Shown here: piece after piece, positions 263-31,060 of the stretch | Position numbering within the stretch: the first letter of the stretch is position 1 | How the letters are laid out: each line of letters starts with the position of its first letter | Assembly: GCA_014161675.1 (NCBI GenBank) | Contig: GCA_014161675.1_4760.1 | DNA from: a phage | DNA length: 64,000 nt | Direction: 5' to 3' (one strand) | The notes under the pieces: generated by a model | Databases searched by the model: none | What the model was told of the DNA's origin: nothing | Seen by the model: only the letters and a program-made list of their open reading frames with translations | Position numbers and translations under genes: made by a program

Positions 263-521
263 AAATCGCCCTCAGTTCTTTATAGCCTCCAATGTGCTCG
301 TTGTCAATGAATATCTGGGGGTATACAAACCGGAGGCTCTTTGAGTTCAGCCTCCCCGCCAGTTCTTCAATCATATCACGGTCGGGAATAATGTCAACCC
401 CGACCTGCTTGAATACTGGTTTAAGTGTATACGGAATACCCAGATCATCCAGTAGATTCATTGCACTAATACAACCATAACAATGATAAGCCTCTTTCGG
501 TATACCGTATATCTCGATCAT
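252..521 (-). CDS. nrdH: NrdH-like glutaredoxin
   Basis: 89 aa, CxxC redox motif (HCYGC), position immediately downstream of nrdG as in T4. Confidence 0.6.
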   Translation of the reverse strand: MIEIYGIPKEAYHCYGCISAMNLLDDLGIPYTLKPVFKQVGVDIIPDRDMIEELAGRLNSKSLRFVYPQIFIDNEHIGGYKELRAIYDY

Positions 522-1018
522 TTCTCAGCCTTTAATCTTTCTAGTTCTTCTTCCAGTTCCTTGATCCGTTGGTCACGTTCAAAGTCACGCTGTAGCTTAG
601 TGGCAAATACTCGCTTAAACTGATTGTAATCATCGATTTTAAACACTTCTTCTTCGCCATAGCGACGCACAGAAACTTCGTAGTTATTGAAGAATTGTTG
701 CATCATTGCTTCGGATGATAGCTCTGCTGATACCACTTTAAAATATTGATCTTCTGTAGGCGAAAACCAATTACAAGCATAAAGATAAACCTTTTCATTG
801 TCTGGACACTGGTAAGCCTTACCATCGATTTCAATCACAGAAACATATTCAGGTATACTAGATGAATCAATAGCTAAGACTTTAAACGCACGGTCCCCGA
901 TAAACTCGGAGATCACACGATTCGCATCACTGGTTGCAAATGCTTTACGCGCTTGTTCGTTTTTCCACTGATAGGTCATACCAACAACAAACATATTACC
1001 AACCTCGCTCTTTACCAA
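518..1018 (-). CDS. hypothetical protein, member of 8-gene paralogous family (globular domain + C-terminal coiled coil)
   Basis: shares GKxY...FKVL..D..G.V..IE.DG...W....E.KYF motif with neighbours; C-terminal KELEEELERLKAEK. Confidence 0.55.
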   Translation of the reverse strand: MVKSEVGNMFVVGMTYQWKNEQARKAFATSDANRVISEFIGDRAFKVLAIDSSSIPEYVSVIEIDGKAYQCPDNEKVYLYACNWFSPTEDQYFKVVSAELSSEAMMQQFFNNYEVSVRRYGEEEVFKIDDYNQFKRVFATKLQRDFERDQRIKELEEELERLKAEK

Positions 1019-1820
1019 TCAAAAATTCAACTTCACGACGTTTAATGTCTTCTTGAAGGTCTTTAATCTTCTGGCGATCTTGCATGATTTCATCCATCTT
1101 GTCAAGTGCTGTAATGAAGTCATCGAAACGTTCAAAGGTTTTACCTTCATTTGCTTCGCCAAATTTAACCATTGTCAGGCCATAACGACTACTAAACAGA
1201 CGTTTCAACTGTCCAACGATCTTAGAATCAGTGGTTATAACTTCCAATTCTTCTACTTCACGAAAGAATTTTCTATCAGAATCAATAAACCAGCTAGTTC
1301 CTTTATGGTCTCTATCTTCGGTTGCACTCATTAGAGTATGGTCTTTACCATCAATTTCAATTACATTAACTTGCCCACATAGACTAACATTTTTAACAGT
1401 AAAAGGTCTATAATTTATTGCTCGTGCAATAACATAATTAAGGTTAGATGCGTTTTCAGCATAATGGCAGAAGTCTGTCATAGCATTCACATCTTTCCAA
1501 GTATAAGTTTTACCAACTTCCCATTTCTGGGGAACTTCTTCAACTTCACGAAAGAATTTTCTATCAAATGGACTAAAGAAATATGTTGCAGTCCAAATGT
1601 CTTTTCCTGTAGCAGTTTTCGCCGTATGATAAACACCGTCTAGCTCTATTGCATCAATCCAACCGTTACCATCGATCTCGATGATGGTAAATGGCTTGTC
1701 ACCAATAGCTGCACTAATATCGCTGTTAAGTGGAGAAAGAACACCTTCTCCGTTAGTAATAAACTCAGTTTTAGCGTTTTCATCTTTCCAGGTGTAGGTT
1801 TTACCAATTTCCCATTTCAT
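996..1820 (-). CDS. hypothetical protein, paralogous family, two tandem domain copies
   Basis: MKWEIGKTYTWKDENA and WEVGKTYTWKDVNA repeats; FFSPFDRKFFREVEE and WFIDSDRKFFREVEE repeats. Confidence 0.6.
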   Translation of the reverse strand: MKWEIGKTYTWKDENAKTEFITNGEGVLSPLNSDISAAIGDKPFTIIEIDGNGWIDAIELDGVYHTAKTATGKDIWTATYFFSPFDRKFFREVEEVPQKWEVGKTYTWKDVNAMTDFCHYAENASNLNYVIARAINYRPFTVKNVSLCGQVNVIEIDGKDHTLMSATEDRDHKGTSWFIDSDRKFFREVEELEVITTDSKIVGQLKRLFSSRYGLTMVKFGEANEGKTFERFDDFITALDKMDEIMQDRQKIKDLQEDIKRREVEFLIGKERGW

Positions 1821-1832
1821 AATATATTCCCC

Positions 1833-2333
1833 TTAACCGATTTTATCAAGTTCGTTTAATGCTTTCTCTGCTTCCTGTATAGCTTGCACTCTTTCCGGCA
1901 TTTTGTCAAGAAAATCTTTCAACTCTTCAAAACTGGAGATATGACGCAAGGCATTAGCACCGATAGCCGCATGTGATTTGCATTCAAAGCGAATTTTATA
2001 ATTATCCATCGCCAATTTGAGAAGGTCTATTAGATCATATTCATGACCAGGCAATAAAACTTCTTTGAAGCACGCTCGGTCGCCATCGGAAAACCATATA
2101 TTATCACCAACATCGATAGAACTAATATAATCCCCTTCGTGATTATAGATTGAACGTACATTACCCCAACGGTCTACCGTAGCGACAGTAAATGGTTTAT
2201 CTAGATATGTAAACACACCATCAATATTAGGTTTTTGTTCGTAACGCCAACAATCACGCAAAATGCGCTTTTCGTCCTCACCAACCAACTTATATGTCTT
2301 CCCTTCTTCCCATTTCATAATATCATCTCTCAT
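1833..2333 (-). CDS. hypothetical protein, paralogous family
   Basis: MKWEEGKTYKL...IWFSDGDRACFKEV; start may be internal Met at 2318. Confidence 0.55.
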   Translation of the reverse strand: MRDDIMKWEEGKTYKLVGEDEKRILRDCWRYEQKPNIDGVFTYLDKPFTVATVDRWGNVRSIYNHEGDYISSIDVGDNIWFSDGDRACFKEVLLPGHEYDLIDLLKLAMDNYKIRFECKSHAAIGANALRHISSFEELKDFLDKMPERVQAIQEAEKALNELDKIG

Positions 2334-2859
2334 TTTTGATACGTGATTCTAATTGGACCATACGGTCGCGCGTTTGCTTGTATTCGCGGATAGCACCGAT
2401 CCGGCTAGGCATACCATCAAGCACGCTCTTAATCCCTTCTAGGGTAGTGATTTTAGCAATACTATTATGTAATCCCATCTTATCGATTAACTGAATGTCG
2501 TAGGCTTCCATAAGCAGACCCAGACGTTCTAAAGTTAGGTCTTCTTCTTTTTCTTCCGATTCTGGAATCTTAGGTTCAATAGTAACTTCGGTAAAGAAAC
2601 GACGCTCACCCGACCAAAACCACACACCGGAACAACCAATAGGGGATTCTTTTAACGTCATAGAGTCGAAATCACTACCAATAATAGTAATTTCTCTAAC
2701 ATCACCATCATCGTCAAGGTCTTCTACCCTAAACGGGCGACCAGCCAACAAGTCAACAATACATCTGTTAATAGACGACGAAAATTTAGTCAGTTCGGCT
2801 TTCGACGCTTCGCATTCAATCTTGTAAGTTTTACCAACTTCCCATTCCATAATAATCAC
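2323..2859 (-). CDS. hypothetical protein, paralogous family
   Basis: MEWEVGKTYKI...VWFWSGERRFFTEV; C-terminal helical tail. Confidence 0.55.
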   Translation of the reverse strand: MIIMEWEVGKTYKIECEASKAELTKFSSSINRCIVDLLAGRPFRVEDLDDDGDVREITIIGSDFDSMTLKESPIGCSGVWFWSGERRFFTEVTIEPKIPESEEKEEDLTLERLGLLMEAYDIQLIDKMGLHNSIAKITTLEGIKSVLDGMPSRIGAIREYKQTRDRMVQLESRIKNER

Positions 2860-2860
2860 C

Positions 2861-3370
2861 TCAAATAATTTTCACTGGAATACTATTAACAATCTTGTAT
2901 TGTACTTGATTGTCAGACCCCCGCCACGGCTTCTTCGTTGGCATATCTTTAATATAACGCCCATCGATGAACATGTCAACTGATTCTACAATTTTTCTTT
3001 GCTCATCATTCAATTGGTCAAGGGTATAACCAGACCATAGCCAAATATCTTTATTTGGCATCCATGATTTTACTTCATCGATGATCCGCTGTACACCCTT
3101 TAAATTGCGTTTATACAGCGGATCGCCACCTAAGAATGTTAGCCCCTGAATAAAATCAGGTCTAAGCAGATCCAGAATCAATCCCATTGTATCATCGGTG
3201 AATGGTTCCCCGTTCTTAGGATTGAGTAGGCTAGCATTAAAGCAACCATCACATGCGTGTGAACATCCGGTAACGTAAAGGGAGACTCTCACCCCCTCAC
3301 CGTTCACCATATCACAATCTTTAATATCGGCATAGCGTAGTTTGCCGTATGTATCAGAACTCATATTCAA
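2861..3370 (-). CDS. nrdG: anaerobic ribonucleotide reductase activating enzyme (radical SAM)
   Basis: Cx3Cx2C cluster (CSHACDGC), GGDPLY motif, adjacent to nrdD; matches T4 NrdG from memory. Confidence 0.9.
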   Translation of the reverse strand: MNMSSDTYGKLRYADIKDCDMVNGEGVRVSLYVTGCSHACDGCFNASLLNPKNGEPFTDDTMGLILDLLRPDFIQGLTFLGGDPLYKRNLKGVQRIIDEVKSWMPNKDIWLWSGYTLDQLNDEQRKIVESVDMFIDGRYIKDMPTKKPWRGSDNQVQYKIVNSIPVKII

Positions 3371-3548
3371 TTACCCCAAACTCGTTTACAATCTGCGCTT
3401 TATAGTAACCACCGCGAGATGCTAATAGATAAGCTGGGCTTAGGTATTCGTATTCACGGATTTCTACTTGTGCGTTTTCAGTTTCCCAAATCAGTAAAGT
3501 CCACATATTTGATTCTCCTGTAAAGTTGTATCTCGTCTTGATGAATAT

Positions 3549-3577
3549 AGTATAGGGGATCTCGCGATCCCCGTCAA
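3549..3577 (-). promoter_or_regulatory. early promoter with hairpin in spacer (PeSL-like)
   Basis: minus sense TTGACg - GGGGATCgcgaGATCCCC - TATACT. Confidence 0.5.
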
Positions 3578-3581
3578 GCAT

Positions 3582-4130
3582 TTATTTTAAATTTTTTCGA
3601 ATGTATTCAGACCATTCCTTCCCTGTCATTTCGGACCCGTTCTGGAAACTGAAATATTCATACGGCATCGAGTCAAGATAAAACAGGATCATACATCGCG
3701 CCATATAATACCAATCACGATTAAAGTAAACTACGTTATCACCAGTACCATCAACCCCTTTATCATAACCATCGCGGGTACTGGCGACCCATTGAATAGT
3801 ATCAGTTTTCTCACGGATCGTAACAGGTTCCCAATATCCAGCACATCCAGCATGACCACACGAACAAGTAAGGAAATATTGTCCTTTTGCTTTGTTGTCA
3901 TCCCATTCACGATGGATTGGTTCGATCTCGTGAAACAGTGCTAAGCAATCATGATTATGCAACACTGGCTTACCATCAATCAATGCATGGAATGTATACA
4001 AACGACCCGTAGACAAATAGTTATCTTCTCGCTCTACAAGTTCAATAGCAATCTTTTTAGCTCGTTCTTTGTGTCGTTGTGCTTTACGCTTACGGTTTAA
4101 TGATTTCATATTCACCTCACACATTATCAA
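3582..4130 (-). CDS. hypothetical protein
   Basis: 182 aa ORF between nrdG and nrdD, cysteine cluster CSCGHAGCAGY; own promoter-hairpin element upstream. Confidence 0.45.
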   Translation of the reverse strand: MIMCEVNMKSLNRKRKAQRHKERAKKIAIELVEREDNYLSTGRLYTFHALIDGKPVLHNHDCLALFHEIEPIHREWDDNKAKGQYFLTCSCGHAGCAGYWEPVTIREKTDTIQWVASTRDGYDKGVDGTGDNVVYFNRDWYYMARCMILFYLDSMPYEYFSFQNGSEMTGKEWSEYIRKNLK

Positions 4131-4669
4131 AGGTCGCGATATAGTACATTATGAAAATGAGAACTTGCATTACCAATATTGTAGATAATAAATTCTTCAT
4201 CCGGCGCTTGCGCTACAAATTGAGTATGAGCAACCGCCACAACCTTAAAAATACGATCCGTGATCTTGTGTTTAATTTCTGCCCCTACTTCCATAGGAAC
4301 ATATTCATTTGTTTCTGTTTCAGTCGCAAAACAGCCATCTTCTTCATAAGCACGAACAAATCGATCGCAATCAGTACGCTTAACAAATTCAAGAGTATAC
4401 AATTCTCGTGAATTGTCGGTATAGACCAATACAGAATTATTATGATAGCGAATCACATACAGGTTATTATCATCGTCAATTACGCAAAAGCTACGGATTC
4501 CTTCGCCTTTACTCCAGCAGATATTAACCACAGTTCCTCTAATAAAAAAACTTTCCTTTAAATTAAAACTAGCCAATGTGCTAGCGTGCATTTTAACAAC
4601 AACACCATCGCCAATTTCCAGTTTACGAAGTTTAACTTCTTTGCTCAGTACACAAAACATCATCATCAT
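4127..4669 (-). CDS. hypothetical protein
   Basis: 180 aa ORF; sigma70-like promoter (TTGACA-16-TATAAT, minus sense) at 4699-4726. Confidence 0.45.
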   Translation of the reverse strand: MMMMFCVLSKEVKLRKLEIGDGVVVKMHASTLASFNLKESFFIRGTVVNICWSKGEGIRSFCVIDDDNNLYVIRYHNNSVLVYTDNSRELYTLEFVKRTDCDRFVRAYEEDGCFATETETNEYVPMEVGAEIKHKITDRIFKVVAVAHTQFVAQAPDEEFIIYNIGNASSHFHNVLYRDL

Positions 4670-4738
4670 GTTGTCCTCTCGTTGTTTTCGATGTGAGCAT
4701 TATACATTAGCTAATCATGTTGTCAACACCCCAAAACG

Positions 4739-4763
4739 AAAAAGCCGACCCTTTCGGATCGGC
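4739..4763 (-). terminator. rho-independent terminator after nrdD
   Basis: minus sense GCCGATCCGAAAGGGTCGGC + UUUUU. Confidence 0.6.
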
Positions 4764-4769
4764 TGAAAT

Positions 4770-6632
4770 TTACATGTGCTTAACGCGGTTTACCATCTCG
4801 GAGTGTTTCCCGTGGTTAAATGGACGCAGATCAACAGATCCAAGATATCCACTAACGCGACGGATAACATTCATCTTTTCCAGATTGTCATTGCCGCAAT
4901 CAGGACAAACAAAACCAGACTCGGTTGCTCTCATTTCCTTAGTAGATCCGCATACATGACATACATCAGAAGGAGTATTAACACCGAAGTAGTGCAATTT
5001 ATCCATTGCATAGTCTACTACAGTTTCAAGACCTTTCAGGTTGTTTTTCATGTCTGGGAACTCAACATAAGAGATCATGCCACCGGACGCCAGCCAGTGA
5101 TAATCTTTCTCAAAGTCGATTTTCTCAAATGGAGTGACTTTCCGGTCTACGTCAAGGTGGAATGAGTTGGTGTACCAGTCTTTATCGGTAGCACCCTTAA
5201 CAATACCAAATTTCTCTCTGTCCAGTCGATTAAATCGATAGCAAAGGCTCTCGGCTGGCGTACCGTAAAGACTAAACCCAAGTCCGGTTTCGTCCTTCCA
5301 TTTTTCAGTATAATGACGCAAGATCTTAAGAATATGTTTACCGTATCGCTGCGCATCTTCCGAATCAAACGGATGAACACCAAACAGGACGCTCAATACC
5401 TCATGTAAACCAATATATCCAAGAGAGATACTAGCGCGACCATCTTTCAACACTTCCAAAATTTCATCGTTTTGATGAATACGGAAAAATGCACCTTCGG
5501 TATACAGTACAGGAGCAACATTGGCTTTAGCCCCTTTTAAAGCGTCTACGCGACTCATAAGCGCATCAAAACAAATAGGCAGACGATTCGCTAGCTCTTG
5601 TTCGAATAGCTCAATTCTGCGCATTACAGACGCTTTACCGGCACGACGCGCGGCAATAAGGGCAATACGCGGAAGATTCAGAGTCACAACACCTAAGTTA
5701 TTACGTCCGTCTAATACTTCTTCGCCTTTCTCATTATGCCACACACCCAGGAAGCTACGACAACCCATCGGGCTAACCGGAACACTAGATCCAGTGATGC
5801 TACGGTTATTCTTCGCAGAGATATAATCAGGGTAAAGACGCTTACTAGAACATTCCAATGCAAGTTGCTTAATGTCGTAGTTCGGATCTTCCGGTTTAAG
5901 GTTTAATCCTTCTTCTAAGAACATCACCAGCTTAGGAAACACCGGAGTGATACCATCTTTACCTAAACCTTTAGTTCGAACGTTCAGGATCGCTTTCTGA
6001 ATCAGTTTTTCTTCCCAGCTAGTACCCATACCAAAGGTTAAAGTCACAAAAGGCGTTTGACCGTTGGTGGAGAACAAAGTGTTGATTTCATATTCCAACG
6101 CTTGATACCCGTCTAAAGTTTCTTTTTCTGTCTTCTCTTGTGCATAGAGAGTATCAGCTTTGATTCCGTAGGTTTCGGCATCAGCAAGGTGTTTATGATA
6201 TGTTTTCTCAACATACGGTGCTAACACCTGATCGATGTTTGCGATTGTGGTCCCGCCATATTGATGACTTGCCACCTGTGCGATAATTTGAGCGGTTACA
6301 GCACAAGCAACGCCGATTGATTTCGGACTTTCGATTTGTGCGCTACCCAATTTAAAACCATTCTCTAACATGTCTTTGAGATTAACAAGACAGCAGTTAG
6401 TAAACGGCATAGCGGGTGCATAATCCATATCATGATAATGAATATCACCGTCTACATGCGCTTTATAGATGTGCTCAGGTAACACGGTTTTAGCAATCTG
6501 TTTAGACACAGCACCAGCAATCAGATCTCGACGTGTCGGGAATGTTCGCGCGTCTTTGTTCGCGTTCTCTTTGCTTACTTCGTTTTCTTTACCCGTTGCG
6601 ATTTCTGTAATGTCTTTGATTAGTTTTTCCAT
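4770..6632 (-). CDS. nrdD: anaerobic ribonucleoside-triphosphate reductase, class III, intron-less
   Basis: 620 aa; FTNCCLV, SPMGCRSF and C-terminal glycyl-radical RRVSGYLG motifs; strong similarity to T4 NrdD. Confidence 0.95.
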   Translation of the reverse strand: MEKLIKDITEIATGKENEVSKENANKDARTFPTRRDLIAGAVSKQIAKTVLPEHIYKAHVDGDIHYHDMDYAPAMPFTNCCLVNLKDMLENGFKLGSAQIESPKSIGVACAVTAQIIAQVASHQYGGTTIANIDQVLAPYVEKTYHKHLADAETYGIKADTLYAQEKTEKETLDGYQALEYEINTLFSTNGQTPFVTLTFGMGTSWEEKLIQKAILNVRTKGLGKDGITPVFPKLVMFLEEGLNLKPEDPNYDIKQLALECSSKRLYPDYISAKNNRSITGSSVPVSPMGCRSFLGVWHNEKGEEVLDGRNNLGVVTLNLPRIALIAARRAGKASVMRRIELFEQELANRLPICFDALMSRVDALKGAKANVAPVLYTEGAFFRIHQNDEILEVLKDGRASISLGYIGLHEVLSVLFGVHPFDSEDAQRYGKHILKILRHYTEKWKDETGLGFSLYGTPAESLCYRFNRLDREKFGIVKGATDKDWYTNSFHLDVDRKVTPFEKIDFEKDYHWLASGGMISYVEFPDMKNNLKGLETVVDYAMDKLHYFGVNTPSDVCHVCGSTKEMRATESGFVCPDCGNDNLEKMNVIRRVSGYLGSVDLRPFNHGKHSEMVNRVKHM

Positions 6633-6676
6633 TGTATCACCTATGAAAAAGCGGGATTTCTCCCGCTCGTTGATAG

Positions 6677-7171
6677 TTATTTTACCAGTTCTGCTAATTC
6701 TTTTTCTTTAGCTTCTAGTTCAGCTTTAAGCTGTTTAATCTCTTGTCGCTTCTTATTAGCGGCTTCCTGCTTACTATTTCGGATAACCTGATCTAGATAC
6801 AACTCCCAATCCTGAATATTTTTGATAATGTAACCGTCAACATTAATTGGTCGGAGATTCAGTACAGCTTCCAGTTTAGTTGCAAAAACTTTAATTGCTG
6901 GGGTGAAGTATTCATATTCGTTATCTTCAAACCAATAACCTAGACTTGCATTATCAATACGAAGACGAAGTTCAAGATCAAGGTCTTTATCTTCGGTGTA
7001 TAGGTCTTTTACACACCCCATAGAATTAACAACAACTTTAAAACGAATTTTATCTACACCACCAAACACATCAGTAAGGATACCAGCAATTGAGCTATTA
7101 GCGCAAGATTGGTCGCTGAATGCGTCAAGGTTTTCTTTAGTTACAGTATACCAAACATCTTGTACCCACAT
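6677..7171 (-). CDS. hypothetical protein, paralogous family
   Basis: YWFEDNEYEYFTPAIKVF motif plus C-terminal coiled coil KQLKAELEAKEKELAELVK. Confidence 0.55.
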   Translation of the reverse strand: MWVQDVWYTVTKENLDAFSDQSCANSSIAGILTDVFGGVDKIRFKVVVNSMGCVKDLYTEDKDLDLELRLRIDNASLGYWFEDNEYEYFTPAIKVFATKLEAVLNLRPINVDGYIIKNIQDWELYLDQVIRNSKQEAANKKRQEIKQLKAELEAKEKELAELVK

Positions 7172-7195
7172 AATATAATCCTCTCGTTGTTAAGT

Positions 7196-7229
7196 GGGAG
7201 TATTATAGCATACTCCCTTCGCATGTCAA
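7196..7229 (-). promoter_or_regulatory. early promoter TTGACA-16-TATAAT overlapping GGGAGTAT hairpin
   Basis: minus sense TTGACAtgcgaaGGGAGTATgcTATAATACTCCC then GAGGATTATATTATG. Confidence 0.55.
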
Positions 7230-8404
7230 GCACTAACTTTTTTCTTTACTGCTTTCACCTTCTGGCGAATTGCTCGAATCTCTTCGATCTCTTTTTCAGT
7301 CTCTTTAACAATTTCTTTGCGATTCTGAATATCTGTATCGAGATTATCATCAAGTTTAGGCAGCATGTCAATCAAGAACTTTTTAAAGTCTTTCAGGTTT
7401 CGAATAACAGCACCTTCGCCCATTACCGCAACACCCACACCATCCGGCAGATCACCAAACAGCTTAACCAGTTCAGACAGATGATCATGATCTTCTAGTG
7501 CTTCTTCCGGTTCAGATGGCAGTTCAACAAAGTTATAACGTTCATCATTGCTGATCAAGTGATACCAGCAAAGCCCGAAAGATTTCGGTGTATATTCTAC
7601 ACCATCAATTTCAACCGCGTCAACACTTCCATAATCATCCACTTTAGTTACCTTAAATCCTTGTCCCAGCTTTTGAACAATTTCAACAACATGACTTGAT
7701 ACAGTTTCAGCGGTAAACCAATATGGCAAATTATGCTGATTTGGTTTGTAGCGTTCACCTACTTTAAATCTCTGACCATCCGCTTGCATAGAATGAAATT
7801 GTTGTTTCGTGATTTCCGCGAAGTATTCAAATTCGCTACCGTCAAACAAGCAATTCCATTGATCACAAAAACGGTCCGCCTTAACAGTTTCACCTTTCGC
7901 GGTGATCATGGTAGCCGATCCATGAAATTCTTCTTCAACCAAAAAGCCATATTCGACAAAATCAACAAGTTTCATGGCTTCTTTGTGCTCTGGGTCATGC
8001 TCTCCCCAGAATCGCTTAAATTCTTGCAAACCTTCTGGGGTAAACGAATAACATTTACCTTTTTCAAAGTAAGTCGGCATTGCATCCTCTTTCTTGTTCA
8101 TCGCTTCGTATGCCTCTTTTGAGATACGTTTAAAGTATTTGCGCTCATTGTGCATAATCATAGTAGACCAATAATAAACGATATCCTCAGCGGAATAAAC
8201 TACATCTCCAGCTTCAATAGTAATAACATGACCGTGGTCATCTTTTTCTAATACTTTAAAGCCCTTTTCTACGATTTCAGCAACCCGAATATGACCACGG
8301 CGCGAAGCATCGGTCAGAATAATTGAATAGCGAGAAAAGTCTAGAAACTCATCTTTACCGCCTTCACGGAATGCATAGTAATGACCTTCAAAGAATTTAG
8401 CCAT
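7226..8404 (-). CDS. hypothetical protein, paralogous family, multi-domain
   Basis: 392 aa; repeated NERKYFKRISK / SEFEYFAEITK / NDERYNFVELP motifs; C-terminal coiled coil. Confidence 0.55.
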   Translation of the reverse strand: MAKFFEGHYYAFREGGKDEFLDFSRYSIILTDASRRGHIRVAEIVEKGFKVLEKDDHGHVITIEAGDVVYSAEDIVYYWSTMIMHNERKYFKRISKEAYEAMNKKEDAMPTYFEKGKCYSFTPEGLQEFKRFWGEHDPEHKEAMKLVDFVEYGFLVEEEFHGSATMITAKGETVKADRFCDQWNCLFDGSEFEYFAEITKQQFHSMQADGQRFKVGERYKPNQHNLPYWFTAETVSSHVVEIVQKLGQGFKVTKVDDYGSVDAVEIDGVEYTPKSFGLCWYHLISNDERYNFVELPSEPEEALEDHDHLSELVKLFGDLPDGVGVAVMGEGAVIRNLKDFKKFLIDMLPKLDDNLDTDIQNRKEIVKETEKEIEEIRAIRQKVKAVKKKVSA

Positions 8405-8428
8405 AATATAATCCTCTCGTTGTTTAGA

Positions 8429-8464
8429 TGGGAGTATCTTACTACTCCCGTTTCATCATGTCAA
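8429..8464 (-). promoter_or_regulatory. early promoter with GGGAGTA hairpin
   Basis: TTGACA (minus) at 8459-8464 and hairpin GGGAGTAtcttacTACTCCC. Confidence 0.45.
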
Positions 8465-8467
8465 GCG

Positions 8468-9046
8468 TTAAAGTGACTTTTTAATCTCTTTCAGTTCTTC
8501 CACTTTCTCGGCGCTGAATTTAGCGTAGGTATCATGTCGAATAATTTCACTTTCAAGAAAGGTTTCCAGTCGAGATCTATTTTCAATAAGGAACTCTTTC
8601 AGGTCTTCCGCGTTCTTGACAAAGATTTTATTGTCGGTAATGTCATCTTCAATCGCAAAGGAGATAGAGCGAACTTTACCAAACAAGTTAATCAGATCTT
8701 CCAGAGATTCTTCTTTCTTAACTGGTTTCATTTCTTCAAACTGCTTTTTAGTGATGCGTTTAAAGTATTTGCGCTCGTTTGCAGCAATCAGAACAGATGC
8801 ACCTTCATACCCATGAGTTTCTACCAGATACACACGCCCCATCGCATCAACAGTGAGAACTTTAAAGCCGTTACAAAGCACGTCATACAAGAACTTATTA
8901 TGTTGCGGACATCGTTTGATAAATTCTGCGGCTGTTTCTGCACTACGGAAAGTATAGTAACGACCTCGTTCAAAAACAGCATCATTTGAAGACTTAGCCG
9001 GATACAATTTATACGTTTTCTGTACCATAATATAATCCTCTATCAT
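8468..9046 (-). CDS. hypothetical protein, paralogous family
   Basis: NGFKVLTVDAMGRVYLVE...ANERKYFKRITKKQFEEM closely parallels 7226..8404. Confidence 0.55.
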   Translation of the reverse strand: MIEDYIMVQKTYKLYPAKSSNDAVFERGRYYTFRSAETAAEFIKRCPQHNKFLYDVLCNGFKVLTVDAMGRVYLVETHGYEGASVLIAANERKYFKRITKKQFEEMKPVKKEESLEDLINLFGKVRSISFAIEDDITDNKIFVKNAEDLKEFLIENRSRLETFLESEIIRHDTYAKFSAEKVEELKEIKKSL

Positions 9047-9375
9047 TTCACTAATTGAACAGCACGGAACAGAATGCGCTCACACGGAAGCAGCATAAAT
9101 TCCCAACGCGGGTCAAAGTCTTTAGCGGTGTATGTTTTCCCATCAACCGCTATTTCACTTACATAACCAACAGGTGACACTTTAAGAACAGTAAACCCAT
9201 TCTTGATGATTTCGTAGGTATCTTTCACCCCTTCGTATTCATCATCTAAGAAGTCTTTATGTGCTTGCTCAGATTTAAAAACATAGGCCACACCGGATTT
9301 AAACATCTTACGCATTGTTGATTCTCCTTCTTGATTAGATGGGAGTATTTTACTACTCCCATTTCTTATTGTCAA
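9043..9375 (-). CDS. hypothetical protein, paralogous family (short)
   Basis: NGFTVLKVSPVGYVSEIAVDGKTY motif. Confidence 0.45.
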   Translation of the reverse strand: MTIRNGSSKILPSNQEGESTMRKMFKSGVAYVFKSEQAHKDFLDDEYEGVKDTYEIIKNGFTVLKVSPVGYVSEIAVDGKTYTAKDFDPRWEFMLLPCERILFRAVQLVK

Positions 9376-9378
9376 CTA

Positions 9379-9867
9379 CTATCTTAATCTTTGTATGAAT
9401 TGTTTCTTATACTTCTTCGTGATTTCTTCTCTTGTATCAGCGTCGCAGTAATCGAAACCTTCTGCGTCCATAATAGCAACCATCTCCGCGCGTGTCAAGC
9501 GTGAAAATCGTTTTACTTTATCAACAGCATATTGAGGATGTAAATGATTGTTGGTGTAGTCTCCTTTGATGTAATTAACATAGTTTGTAGCCCAAACAAC
9601 GAAATCAGCACCTAAAGCACCAACACCAAACCGTTTAAAGTCTCCGGTCAACGATCCTTCTAGTCGGTTGCAACACGAATGAAGCAATCCCCTTACGCGG
9701 CCTTGCCCTTTACCATCTAGATCGTGGTCGTGGTCAAGATGGTTTTTGCTCATATCCTCAAAAAGTGGCAATTGACAAAGGGGGCAAATGCCCCCCTGTT
9801 TTTCGAATAGTTCTTGTTTGTACTCTTTAGCACTCTTAGCAGTCAGTAACATAAATTCACCCTCCAA
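9379..9867 (-). CDS. 49: endonuclease VII (Holliday junction resolvase)
   Basis: CPLCQ...HLDHDHDL...RGLLHSCCN zinc/HNH-like motif as in T4 gp49. Confidence 0.85.
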   Translation of the reverse strand: MEGEFMLLTAKSAKEYKQELFEKQGGICPLCQLPLFEDMSKNHLDHDHDLDGKGQGRVRGLLHSCCNRLEGSLTGDFKRFGVGALGADFVVWATNYVNYIKGDYTNNHLHPQYAVDKVKRFSRLTRAEMVAIMDAEGFDYCDADTREEITKKYKKQFIQRLR

Positions 9868-27176: not shown

Positions 27177-27515
27177 TCACACCTTTAAAGTCATAGACGC
27201 ATAAACATTAATGCCAGGCCAGTTAGGATCGCAATTATACTCAACATCCCACAAATAAAGCGGTTTAGATGTATCAGCCAAGTTTTTAAAATCTTCTACC
27301 CACATTTCAAGGCTATATGATGGATAAACTAGGCTATCATATCCGCCGTAACGTTGGCCTACTGGTCGGTCAGTAAAAACTACCTCAAGATCCGGTAATT
27401 CTTTTTCAAGGATAACCGCCAGCGCATAAATCAGACGGTCTTCCTTGTTACGCTGCCGAAGGACCGTTGTCAGTTGGTTTTTCTGGTTCACTAGCAAGCA
27501 CCTCCACATTTTCAC
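27177..27515 (-). CDS. hypothetical protein
   Basis: 112 aa ORF. Confidence 0.35.
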   Translation of the reverse strand: MKMWRCLLVNQKNQLTTVLRQRNKEDRLIYALAVILEKELPDLEVVFTDRPVGQRYGGYDSLVYPSYSLEMWVEDFKNLADTSKPLYLWDVEYNCDPNWPGINVYASMTLKV

Positions 27516-27768
27516 AGAATGAAATTTTCACAGACACAATTTTACCATAAGTGAAGAATGAATATACATTATCGAGATATTCAACGTCACCTACAATCAC
27601 ATCAAACTGCGGATCAGCAACCGCCGCAACATATTCTACCAGTTCATCAAGAGAATGCAACTTAATTTCATCAATTCGGCTGTATTTGGTTGCATCTTTA
27701 ATTTTAAAACCACGTTCTTTCAGTTTGTCAATCAGAATTTCACGCGGAGTTTCAAACAGTTTGCTCAT
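27448..27768 (-). CDS. hypothetical protein
   Basis: 106 aa ORF with GAGGATTATATTATG leader. Confidence 0.45.
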   Translation of the reverse strand: MSKLFETPREILIDKLKERGFKIKDATKYSRIDEIKLHSLDELVEYVAAVADPQFDVIVGDVEYLDNVYSFFTYGKIVSVKISFCENVEVLASEPEKPTDNGPSAA

Positions 27769-27789
27769 AATATAATCCTCACATTAAAT

Positions 27790-30660: not shown

Positions 30661-30903
30661 TCATAGCGTACAAAGCCATTTAAAAGCACCACATAAAGCG
30701 AGCAGAATACTAGGTATAAACGAGACCATAACAAGTTTGCAAAAATCATCTAAGGTAACGCCGGAATAGCTACCTACTGTAACAACACCTATCATCAGAC
30801 ACAGAAAGAAAACAAATGCAACCAGAAACAAAGTATTGCTAAACAGTTTAGTGATCATTAGACACCCCACGACGATCAATTTCAAAAACTTTTTTACCAT
30901 CAA
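30661..30903 (-). CDS. small membrane protein
   Basis: 80 aa. Confidence 0.4.
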   Translation of the reverse strand: MMVKKFLKLIVVGCLMITKLFSNTLFLVAFVFFLCLMIGVVTVGSYSGVTLDDFCKLVMVSFIPSILLALCGAFKWLCTL

Positions 30904-31051
30904 CGAAGCATGTCACAACTGCCTCGTTGACTTCCGCAAATTGTTGTGTTACCCACTTAAGGTCAGAGCGAAACAATGTTCTATTAATAACAAATGTTTT
31001 ACCGCTCTTATCCTTACCCATAAATTTTGCTTTAACCATATCCAATTCCAT
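30848..31051 (-). CDS. hypothetical protein
   Basis: 67 aa ORF. Confidence 0.35.
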   Translation of the reverse strand: MELDMVKAKFMGKDKSGKTFVINRTLFRSDLKWVTQQFAEVNEAVVTCFVDGKKVFEIDRRGVSNDH

Positions 31052-31060
31052 ATTATCACC

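What the first reader, a model, noticed from the sequence alone, without database searches (positions are those of the whole stretch)
518..9375. Eight-gene paralogous family in two tandem arrays flanking nrdG/nrdD
ORFs 518-1018, 996-1820, 1833-2333, 2323-2859 and 6677-7171, 7226-8404, 8468-9046, 9043-9375 share a roughly 80-residue domain (consensus like WExGKTY ... GFKVL.VD..G.V..IE.DG ... W...NE.KYF..I), present in one to three copies per protein, usually followed by a C-terminal coiled coil. About 11 domain copies occupy about 5 kb; several have their own promoter-hairpin element. Such expansion is unusual next to core nucleotide-metabolism genes and suggests diversifying selection, for example on host-interaction or anti-defence proteins.
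Basis: seen in the sequence. Interest (0 to 1): 0.6.

Follow-up and report, generated by a model that had tools for sequence, protein, structure and literature searches.

The report
Expanded GoF-family genes in RB49-like phage
Eight neighbouring early genes of an RB49-like (Krischvirus) E. coli phage are real paralogues of phage T4's GoF/Frd.2 proteins, a family described in 2025 whose function is still unknown; the new points are its size here and the way related phages swap single domains.

Summary
Eight minus-strand genes in two arrays (between nrdH and nrdG, and between nrdD and gene 49) carry 11 copies of a ~90-residue domain. Profiles built from one array find every member of the other. 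Seven of the eight proteins add a C-terminal helix, hairpin and long-helix module.

The family is not new. The window is a Krischvirus (98% identical to phage kvi), and the domain is the N-terminal small beta-barrel of T4 GoF and Frd.2 (Kim et al. 2025, 'LSm-like fold' family). GenBank and RefSeq already label gene F as frd.2 or goF. The promoter-hairpins are PeSL cassettes, described in 2010.

What appears undescribed in the papers I could search:
- The family has nine genes and 12 domains in this genus, against three genes in T4.
- Some proteins carry two or three heads.
- The C-terminal module differs from that of T4 GoF.
- Closely related phages exchange single domains.

All eight genes are present, in the same order, in the 14 Krischvirus sequences compared. 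They are under purifying selection (pN/pS 0.13-0.44; core genes 0.04-0.11). Diversifying selection is not shown, and unrelated neighbouring genes behave the same way. Function is unknown. My best guess is a set of early, dimeric binders of host or phage transcription or RNA-decay components.

The parts
518..994 (-). Gene A (158 aa): one GoF-type N-terminal domain (res 1-92) plus a C-terminal helix/hairpin/coiled-coil module
   Evidence: HMM and BLAST. phrog_5347 1e-60, phrog_622 3e-7. Start taken from the annotation in relatives.
996..1820 (-). Gene B (274 aa): two tandem GoF-type domains (res 1-97 and 98-193; 48% identical) plus the C-terminal module
   Evidence: Two HMM domains, each about 1e-33. 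Identity matrix. One metagenomic relative (P0054) has a single domain.
1833..2318 (-). Gene C (161 aa): GoF-type domain plus C-terminal module
   Evidence: The N-terminal domain is swapped in RB49, Phi1, JSE and JK32.
2323..2850 (-). Gene D (175 aa): GoF-type domain, acidic linker, C-terminal module
6677..7171 (-). Gene E (164 aa): divergent GoF-type domain plus C-terminal module
   Evidence: Array-1 HMM 9e-4. phrog_3710 5e-4. AF2 model, pLDDT 84, same topology as D. Foldseek hits orthologues of A, B and D and the GoF of phage VR7.
7226..8404 (-). Gene F (392 aa): three GoF-type domains (about res 1-100, 110-205, 208-300) plus C-terminal module; named frd.2 or goF in public records
   Evidence: Three HMM domains. 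phrog_8944 'goF' 5e-214. Named frd.2 in RB49, Phi1 and JSE.
8468..9046 (-). Gene G (186-192 aa; start at 9028 or 9046): one GoF-type domain (basic, pI 9.4) plus C-terminal module
   Evidence: RefSeq names it 'goF mRNA metabolism modulator'.
9043..9315 (-). Gene H (90 aa): a GoF-type domain alone, with no C-terminal module
   Evidence: HMM 9.5e-9 from the array-1 profile. phrog_16115, phrog_622 2e-7.
7196..7229 (-). PeSL cassette upstream of E: TTGACA-16-TATAAT (12 of 12) with a GGGAGTA/TACTCCC stem over the -10 box
   Evidence: Class described in PMC2839356.
8430..8464 (-). PeSL cassette upstream of F
9341..9375 (-). PeSL cassette upstream of H (and, by inference, G)

Best explanation
**What they are.** These are eight early accessory genes of a Krischvirus that belong to the GoF/Frd.2 family of T4-type phages. 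Each protein has one to three N-terminal SH3-like small beta-barrel 'heads' of about 90 aa, with a two-helix insert. In seven of the eight, an acidic flexible linker joins the head to a conserved C-terminal module: a short helix, a beta-hairpin and a long charged amphipathic helix.

**How they arose (inferred from sequence relationships).**
- The arrays arose by old tandem gene duplication and by duplication of the head within genes B and F, inside a hyperplastic region.
- The three genes or gene pairs of array 2 are bracketed by near-identical PeSL promoter/stem-loop cassettes.
- All eight genes are retained under purifying selection across the genus.
- Individual heads, and once a tail, are replaced by very divergent alleles through recombination at domain boundaries.

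**How they work (inferred, not shown).**
- They are expressed immediately after infection.
- The tail helix dimerises.
- The variable heads bind macromolecular targets. The most likely targets are host or phage proteins of the transcription, termination or RNA-decay machinery. Direct RNA binding is possible for a minority of the heads.
- The net effect is to tune mRNA fate or host takeover in particular hosts.

**Confidence.** The stated figure of 0.55 is for the whole statement. Identity and evolutionary history alone are about 0.9, and the binding mechanism alone about 0.3.
For: **Identity**
- The window-derived profile hits T4 GoF at 2e-12 and Frd.2 at 3e-5, with MotB.1 ranked third, among 889 T4 ORFs.
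- T4 GoF and Frd.2 both fall in phrog_622, which seven of the eight window proteins also hit. GoF also hits phrog_5347, the family of A-D.
- Public records name F as frd.2 or goF.

**Fold**
- The AF2 models show a beta-barrel head, a disordered linker and a helix/hairpin/long-helix tail.

**Early expression**
- Consensus sigma-70 PeSL promoters lie upstream of E, F and H. PeSLs were shown to be strong promoters and terminators.

**Retention and constraint**
- All eight genes are present in 14 of 14 genomes, in the same order.
- pN/pS is 0.13-0.44 gene-wide and 0.06-0.21 in the tails.

**Domain swaps**
- B NTD2: 47% aa identity, pS 0.68, flanked by 93% aa identity and pS about 0.1.
- C head: 46% aa identity; its tail 96%.
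- G tail: 58% aa identity; its head 98%.

**Dimerisation**
- GoF and MotB.1 run as monomer plus dimer.
- The tails show heptad-like hydrophobic periodicity.
Against: - No experiment bears on these eight proteins.
- Wild-type T4 GoF and MotB.1 had no clear effect in the only functional assay, and deletions are neutral in the laboratory.
- AF3 gave no confident homo-oligomer for GoF.
- The tail of these proteins is not the T4 GoF tail, so the dimer inference is indirect.
- The E model was built with paralogues in its alignment, which favours the shared fold.
- Sequence similarity of the tails between the two arrays is marginal (E 0.026).
Confidence: 0.55

Rival explanations
1. They are RNA chaperones or RNA-stability factors. 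The heads act as LSm/Hfq-like RNA binders, and the expansion supplies different RNA specificities.
For: - They are homologous to GoF, whose D25Y mutant stabilises gene 41 leader RNA after transcription.
- At the column aligned with GoF D25, B2 has Y and D1, F1 and F2 have F.
- At the column aligned with GoF G84 (mutant G84R), five of 11 heads have K or R.
- The head of G is basic, pI 9.4.
- A ninth paralogue, Dc2, lies just downstream of helicase gene 41.
Against: - Wild-type GoF and MotB.1 did not stabilise RNA.
- Nine of 11 heads are acidic, with net charge -2 to -9.
- There is no N-terminal Sm helix in the models.
- No Pfam LSM or Hfq match was found.
- The D25 column sits next to an indel, so that alignment is uncertain.
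Confidence: 0.2
2. They are anti-defence or host-range factors. The variable heads on a constant stalk neutralise strain-specific host defence or restriction proteins, and head swapping reflects an arms race.
For: - They are early genes in a hyperplastic region.
- Heads vary more than tails in six of seven proteins.
- Head replacement occurs between phages that are otherwise 95-98% identical.
- Some 25-codon windows within heads, and one spanning the linker between the second and third heads of F, reach pN/pS of about 1-1.5.
- Frameshifted copies occur in two isolates, which points to conditional dispensability.
Against: - There is no gene-wide pN/pS above 1.
- The swapped alleles carry saturated synonymous divergence, so they are old lineages and not products of rapid in-situ evolution.
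- The unrelated neighbours orf54 and orf55 vary in the same way.
- Copy number is fixed at eight in every genome examined.
- No similarity to a known anti-defence protein turned up. The PADLOC library was not searched, because it models defence proteins and not inhibitors.
Confidence: 0.2
3. They are functionless or selfish passengers, multiplied and kept only by PeSL-mediated recombination.
For: - PeSLs mediate shuffling and form mini-circles.
- Frameshifted B and D occur in two isolates.
Against: - Purifying selection acts on every gene, most strongly on the tails, with pN/pS 0.06-0.21.
- All eight genes are kept in 14 of 14 genomes, although the paralogues are only 15-48% identical and therefore old.
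- Array 1 has no PeSLs at all.
Confidence: 0.05

Closest known systems
T4 GoF (comC-alpha), NP_049624
   Same: The N-terminal domain is the same: profile E 2e-12 across the full domain, with shared PHROGs. GoF is also an early gene, has an acidic linker after the head and is non-essential.
   Different: The C-terminal domains differ. T4 GoF ends in a small '[23 protein letters not shown]'-type module, also seen in metagenomic relatives. The window proteins end in a helix, hairpin and long helix. T4 has one goF next to gene 39, and the Krischvirus kvi has no family member at that locus.
T4 Frd.2 (NP_049852; Pfam PF03197 FRD2)
   Same: It carries the same head: profile E 3e-5 and phrog_622. The original RB49, Phi1 and JSE annotations call gene F frd.2.
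   Different: T4 Frd.2 has one head and 128 aa and lies by frd. F has three heads and 392 aa and lies by nrdD. No window protein matched any Pfam model convincingly, PF03197 included: it did not appear among matches up to E 1, though that scan does not list all weak matches.
T4 MotB.1
   Same: PMC12152347 places it in the same structural family. It ranks third for the window profile among T4 ORFs.
   Different: The match is not significant by sequence (E 0.25), and MotB.1 falls in a different PHROG, 2333.
PeSL promoter/stem-loop cassettes of RB49 and phi1 (Arbiol et al. 2010; Comeau et al. 2014)
   Same: The elements upstream of E, F and H are intergenic. Each has a -35 TTGACA, a stem-loop overlapping the -10 box, then a Shine-Dalgarno sequence and ATG.
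   Different: Nothing material differs. These three share one particular stem (GGGAGTA/TACTCCC) that is found nowhere else in the 64-kb window.
FeoA-type and other SH3-like small beta-barrels (KOW, Tudor, LSm)
   Different: There is no sequence relationship. The heads have a two-helix insert between strands 1 and 2, no metal ligands and no Sm motifs.

Membership tests
Phage GoF/Frd.2/MotB.1 'LSm-like fold' family (Kim et al. 2025, PMC12152347) | An N-terminal domain of about 90 aa that is homologous to the GoF/Frd.2 N-terminal domain | tested here: met
   The window profile hits T4 GoF at 2e-12 and Frd.2 at 3e-5. BLASTP of GoF against G gives 2e-4, A 8e-4 and D 1e-3. phrog_622 is shared.
Phage GoF/Frd.2/MotB.1 'LSm-like fold' family (Kim et al. 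2025, PMC12152347) | A predicted bent five-stranded antiparallel beta-sheet or barrel, joined by a flexible linker to a variable C-terminal domain | tested here: met
Phage GoF/Frd.2/MotB.1 'LSm-like fold' family (Kim et al. 2025, PMC12152347) | Early expression and dispensability in the laboratory | tested here: inconclusive
   Consensus sigma-70 PeSL promoters lie upstream of E, F and H. Frameshifted B and D occur in two isolates. No expression or knockout data exist.
Phage GoF/Frd.2/MotB.1 'LSm-like fold' family (Kim et al. 2025, PMC12152347) | An effect on mRNA level or stability | not testable with these tools
   This is known only for the GoF(D25Y) mutant. Wild-type GoF is inactive in the assay.
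LSm/Hfq proteins proper | An N-terminal alpha-helix followed by Sm1/Sm2 motifs, and a match to the LSM or Hfq profiles | tested here: not met
LSm/Hfq proteins proper | A hexameric or heptameric ring | not testable with these tools
   Only single-chain prediction was available. AF3 gave no confident oligomers for GoF.
Pfam PF03197 (Bacteriophage FRD2 protein) | A score above the gathering threshold of 29 bits | tested here: not met
   No window protein matched PF03197 among results listed up to E 1; the scan's speed filters drop most matches above E about 0.1. A metagenomic relative, P0061, scores 28.1 bits.
PeSL regulatory cassettes (PMC2839356) | An intergenic sigma-70 consensus promoter combined with a stable stem-loop, upstream of a Shine-Dalgarno sequence and ATG of an accessory ORF in a hyperplastic region of an RB49-type phage | tested here: met
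   Sequences read directly. The promoter scan gives 10-12 of 12 matches. The 7-bp stems occur three times with 0 expected.

The most novel reading that the evidence does not exclude
The nine Krischvirus paralogues would form a repertoire of target-specific binders. Exchangeable SH3-like heads, up to three per chain, would sit on a constant dimerising stalk. Each would neutralise a different host factor or defence protein early in infection. Head-cassette swapping between co-infecting phages would then be the way host range or counter-defence specificity is reassorted.
Probability: 0.15. Interest if true: 0.7.

Novelty: new member of a known kind. Interest (0 to 1): 0.33.

Why it matters
GoF has been an unsolved T4 gene since the 1970s, and the 2025 study still found no activity for the wild-type protein.

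A genus that keeps nine diverged paralogues offers natural material for assigning a function:
- some proteins carry two or three heads;
- some heads carry an aromatic or basic residue at the columns aligned with the T4 gain-of-function sites;
- near-isogenic phages differ by a single head.

These could be used in pull-downs, allele swaps between sequenced isolates and RNA-stability assays.

The finding is also a clear example of recombination at domain boundaries inside genes of a T4-type hyperplastic region.

It is not a new kind of system.

Tried and rejected
1. **Database searches with alignments.** The search for homologous proteins with the 11-domain alignment and with a 50-sequence alignment returned only 8 hits and 1 hit. 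The word index does not suit so divergent a domain.
2. **Related loci.** I therefore could not survey arrays in IMG/VR.
3. **Long repeat proteins.** Proteins of 466-5094 aa among the profile hits, each with several partial matches, looked like a possible deeper link. All four that I checked are made of beta-sandwich repeats or unrelated toxin and baseplate-type domains (fn3, filamin/Ig, cadherin-like). I treat this whole class of hits as chance matches to a beta-hairpin.
4. **More members in the window.** ORFs 27451-27783 and 30851-31060 reach only E 0.005-0.3, so I do not count them.
5. **orf54 and orf55.** These two ORFs between nrdG and nrdD are not family members.
6. **kvi_53 and kvi_54.** These genes next to alt have the same lengths as A and B but do not match the profile.
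7. **Tail homology between arrays.** It is only marginal by HMM (F at E 0.026). It rests instead on a shared motif ([IV]..[DE][DE][FLW]K.[FVL]L), full-length BLAST alignments and the two models.
8. **Solved structures.** No relative with a solved structure was found by sequence.
9. **Virion-structural role.** Rejected because the genes sit in the early-gene orientation, have sigma-70 promoters and match no structural PHROG category.
Full report
**Where the window comes from.** The region 500-9400 is 98.4% identical to Escherichia phage kvi. It is 95-98% identical over its full length to more than 50 RB49-like phages of the genus Krischvirus, family Straboviridae. All the genes in question are on the minus strand, in the early-gene orientation. 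The order is nrdH (252-521), A, B, C, D, nrdG (2861-3364), three unrelated small ORFs, nrdD (4770-6632), E, F, G, H, gene 49 (9379-9852).

**Checking the observation.**
- All-against-all BLASTP links the eight proteins. The values are C-D 2e-14, A-B 2e-10, B-D 4e-10, F-G 2e-9, A-H 7e-7, B-H 9e-6 and B-F 2e-4.
- To avoid circularity I built one profile from the array-1 domains only and one from the array-2 domains only. I searched all 603 six-frame ORFs of the window with each.
- Each profile retrieved every member of the other array as its best non-self hits. Array 1 found F at 1.5e-12, H at 9.5e-9, G at 7e-6 and E at 9e-4. Array 2 found B at 2e-15, A at 3e-8, D at 8e-5 and C at 2e-4.
- F's middle domain, which was not in the seed, scored 4e-9.
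Each protein then begins directly with the domain, for example M-K/E-W-E-x-G-K-T-Y.
- E is the weakest member by sequence. It also hits phrog_3710 (5e-4). Its AF2 model (pLDDT 84) has the same architecture as D. A fold search of that model against viral models returns orthologues of A, B and D and a protein labelled GoF, at 9e-4. One caveat applies: paralogues were in the alignment used for the E model.

**What the domain is.**
- Pfam and NCBIfam gave nothing.
- All eight proteins hit a cluster of related PHROGs (5347, 622, 3710, 5804, 16115, 8944, 13003, 2980), some of them labelled 'goF mRNA metabolism modulator'.
- T4 GoF, read from NC_000866, matches the window-derived 11-domain profile at 2e-12 over the whole domain. 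T4 Frd.2 matches at 3e-5. MotB.1 ranks third at E 0.25, which is not significant. This search covered 889 T4 ORFs.
- In the reverse direction, GoF and Frd.2 both belong to phrog_622, which seven of the eight window proteins hit. GoF also hits phrog_5347, the family of A-D.
- RB49, Phi1 and JSE GenBank records already call gene F 'frd.2'. RefSeq calls F and G 'goF'.
- This is the family described by Kim et al. 2025 (PMC12152347). [quoted passage not shown] The barrel is joined by a flexible linker to variable C-terminal domains.
- In that study, deletions are neutral in the laboratory. GoF and MotB.1 run as monomer plus dimer. Only the mutant GoF(D25Y) stabilises a gene 41 leader RNA.

**Structure.**
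- The AF2 model of D (pLDDT 79; 85-94 in the barrel core) has these elements: strand 11-14, helices 17-26 and 29-38, strands 43-48 and 54-59, a bridge near residue 81, a short helix 83-88 and strand 89-92. A disordered acidic linker (96-106) follows. The tail has helix 109-119, a hairpin at 124-126/135-137 and a long helix 140-177.
- No relative has a solved structure by sequence.
- The terminal helices are 38-55% charged. Hydrophobic residues occupy 54-70% of the best a/d register against 21-31% elsewhere. This fits a short coiled coil but does not prove one.

**How wide the family is.**
- A profile search of 1.84 billion cluster representatives found only 91 clusters at E<=1e-3.
- Most of them are proteins of 120-190 aa with the domain at the N-terminus. 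Some have two or three heads.
- At least three tail types occur: the coiled-coil type seen here, a T4-GoF-like '...RLKAIEMLTNM...' type, and a '...VEIY...' type.
- A fold search of the D model against viral models gave 62 hits at E<=1e-3. All are uncharacterised proteins of T4-like and other large myoviruses, including phages of Aeromonas, Edwardsiella, Proteus, Pectobacterium, Serratia, Morganella and Cronobacter. The Krischvirus protein 'Dc2' is among them.
- Scanning the rest of the kvi genome found that ninth member: Dc2, between helicase 41 and primase 61, at E 1.2e-7.
- Krischvirus therefore has nine genes and 12 heads, against three genes in T4. Only about 104 kb of the T4 genome was scanned here; the count of three comes from the paper.
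- T4 has no such genes at the nrdH-nrdG-nrdD-49 loci. It has homing endonucleases there, or nothing.
- kvi has no family member at T4's goF locus next to gene 39.

**The promoter-hairpins.**
- Upstream of E, F and H the sequence reads TTGACA, spacer, GGGAGTA, loop, TACTCCC, with the -10 box inside the hairpin. A Shine-Dalgarno sequence and ATG follow.
- The promoter matches are 12, 10 and 11 of 12.
- This stem occurs exactly three times in 64 kb, with none expected by chance.
- These are PeSL cassettes, described for RB49 and phi1 by Arbiol et al. 2010. That paper shows them to be strong early promoters and terminators, concentrated in hyperplastic regions, and mediators of modular shuffling. 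It names nrdD as a PeSL-associated plastic gene.
- Array 1 has no PeSL. Its genes are separated by 1-12 bases and are presumably co-transcribed with nrdG.

**Testing 'diversifying selection'.** I compared 14 Krischvirus sequences (the window and 13 public genomes).
- Gene content and order are identical in all 14. B is split in PTE-Eco09 and D is split in G37-3; these are frameshifts or sequencing errors.
- NrdH, NrdG, NrdD and gp49 are 98-100% identical in protein sequence. Each family gene has discrete divergent alleles: A 69-70% in three phages, B 74%, C 65% in four, E 64-65% in two, G 72-89%. The unrelated orf54 (47-48%) and orf55 (60-72%) behave the same way.
- Mean pN/pS is 0.13-0.44 for the family, 0.36-0.46 for orf54 and orf55, and 0.04-0.11 for the core genes.
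- Heads are less constrained than tails in six of the seven two-module proteins: 0.19-0.52 against 0.06-0.21. G is the exception.
- Only a few 25-codon windows reach 0.9-1.5.
- The diversity comes with near-saturated synonymous divergence and changes abruptly at domain boundaries:
  - B against JK32: NTD1 93% aa identity (pS 0.12), NTD2 47% (pS 0.68), tail 93% (pS 0.08).
  - C against RB49: head 46% (pS 0.69), tail 96% (pS 0.15).
  - G against G37-3: head 98% (pS 0.02), tail 58% (pS 0.61).
- The pattern is recombinational replacement of single domains by old alleles from an unsampled pool. The products stay under purifying selection. It is not rapid positive selection in place.
- Paralogue identities of 15-48%, and a tree that separates the two arrays, show that the duplications are old. 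B1/B2 is the youngest pair.

**Clues to function.**
- Nine of the 11 heads are acidic (net charge -2 to -9). G's head is basic (pI 9.4) and H's is neutral. This argues against general RNA binding, and it fits the inactivity of wild-type GoF.
- At the column aligned with GoF D25, B2 has Y and D1, F1 and F2 have F. At the column aligned with G84 (the other suppressor mutation, G84R), five heads have K or R.
- The T4 gain-of-function changes may therefore recreate residues that are normal in some paralogues. The D25 column lies beside an indel, so I treat this as a lead and not a result.

**Verdict.**
- The family is a known one with no known function, and the hairpin promoters are known elements.
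- The location is typical for a T4-type hyperplastic region.
- The claim of diversifying selection is not supported as stated. Heads are indeed the variable, exchangeable part.
- I did not find the following described in the papers I could search: the nine-gene expansion, the two- and three-head proteins, the distinct conserved tail and the domain-cassette swapping.
- This is a set of new members of a known kind. It is of moderate interest, mainly as material for finally assigning a function to GoF-type proteins.

Noticed in passing
L004 32083-32718 (phage kvi MN850615, record 114083-114718, minus strand): There is a ninth family member outside the arrays. The 211-aa protein 'Dc2' lies between helicase gene 41 and primase gene 61 (profile E 1.2e-7; it also appears in the fold search of D). 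Gene 41 mRNA is the one affected by T4 GoF(D25Y).
   Followed up: partly
window 518-9315; alignment columns matching T4 GoF D25 and G84: B2 has Y, and D1, F1 and F2 have F, at the column aligned with GoF D25 (gain-of-function D25Y). Five heads have K or R at the column aligned with G84 (suppressor G84R). The D25 column is next to an indel, so the alignment is uncertain.
   Followed up: partly
window 3582-4109 and 4127-4669, minus strand: Two unrelated ORFs between nrdG and nrdD (phrog_8242 and phrog_14838, function unknown) also have very divergent alleles among otherwise near-identical Krischvirus genomes: 47-48% and 60-72% aa identity. The ORF at 3582-4109 contains a 'CSCGHAGCAGYW' cysteine-rich motif.
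   Followed up: partly
L015 (phage JSE) 4762-7384: In JSE, nrdD is split by a homing-endonuclease gene. In the window and the other 12 genomes it is intact.
   Followed up: no
L008 997-1820 (PTE-Eco09) and L012 2324-2849 (G37-3): Gene B is annotated as two pieces in PTE-Eco09, and gene D as two pieces in G37-3. These are frameshifts or sequencing errors, and suggest that each gene is individually dispensable.
   Followed up: no
BFVD hits: Several other phages contribute multiple hits: at least eight entries with the accession prefix A0A873W, four from Pectobacterium phage PM2, three from Serratia phage PS2, and the consecutive accessions E1A2G9 and E1A2H0 from Aeromonas phage phiAS5. Multi-copy GoF-type families are therefore probably common in T4-like phages.
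   Followed up: no
window 4699-4726 and 4743-4764, minus strand: A perfect sigma-70 consensus promoter (TTGACA-16-TATAAT) lies just downstream of a strong terminator-like hairpin (9 bp, 6 GC) that follows nrdD. This looks like another PeSL-type cassette, one that drives orf55 and probably everything down to array 1.
   Followed up: no
L003 17738-19044 (kvi_53 and kvi_54, next to alt): These two adjacent genes are 486 and 825 nt long, the same lengths as the C orthologue in several related genomes and as B. They do not match the GoF-type profile (no hit at E<=1).
   Followed up: yes
D orthologues (P0017, P0020) and the T4 goF 21-bp deletion in PMC9271167: The acidic linker between head and tail varies in length among D orthologues (an extra 'EEDKEQEP'-type insert). 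An in-frame deletion in the matching acidic stretch of T4 GoF rose to high frequency in a gut-on-a-chip evolution experiment.
   Followed up: no
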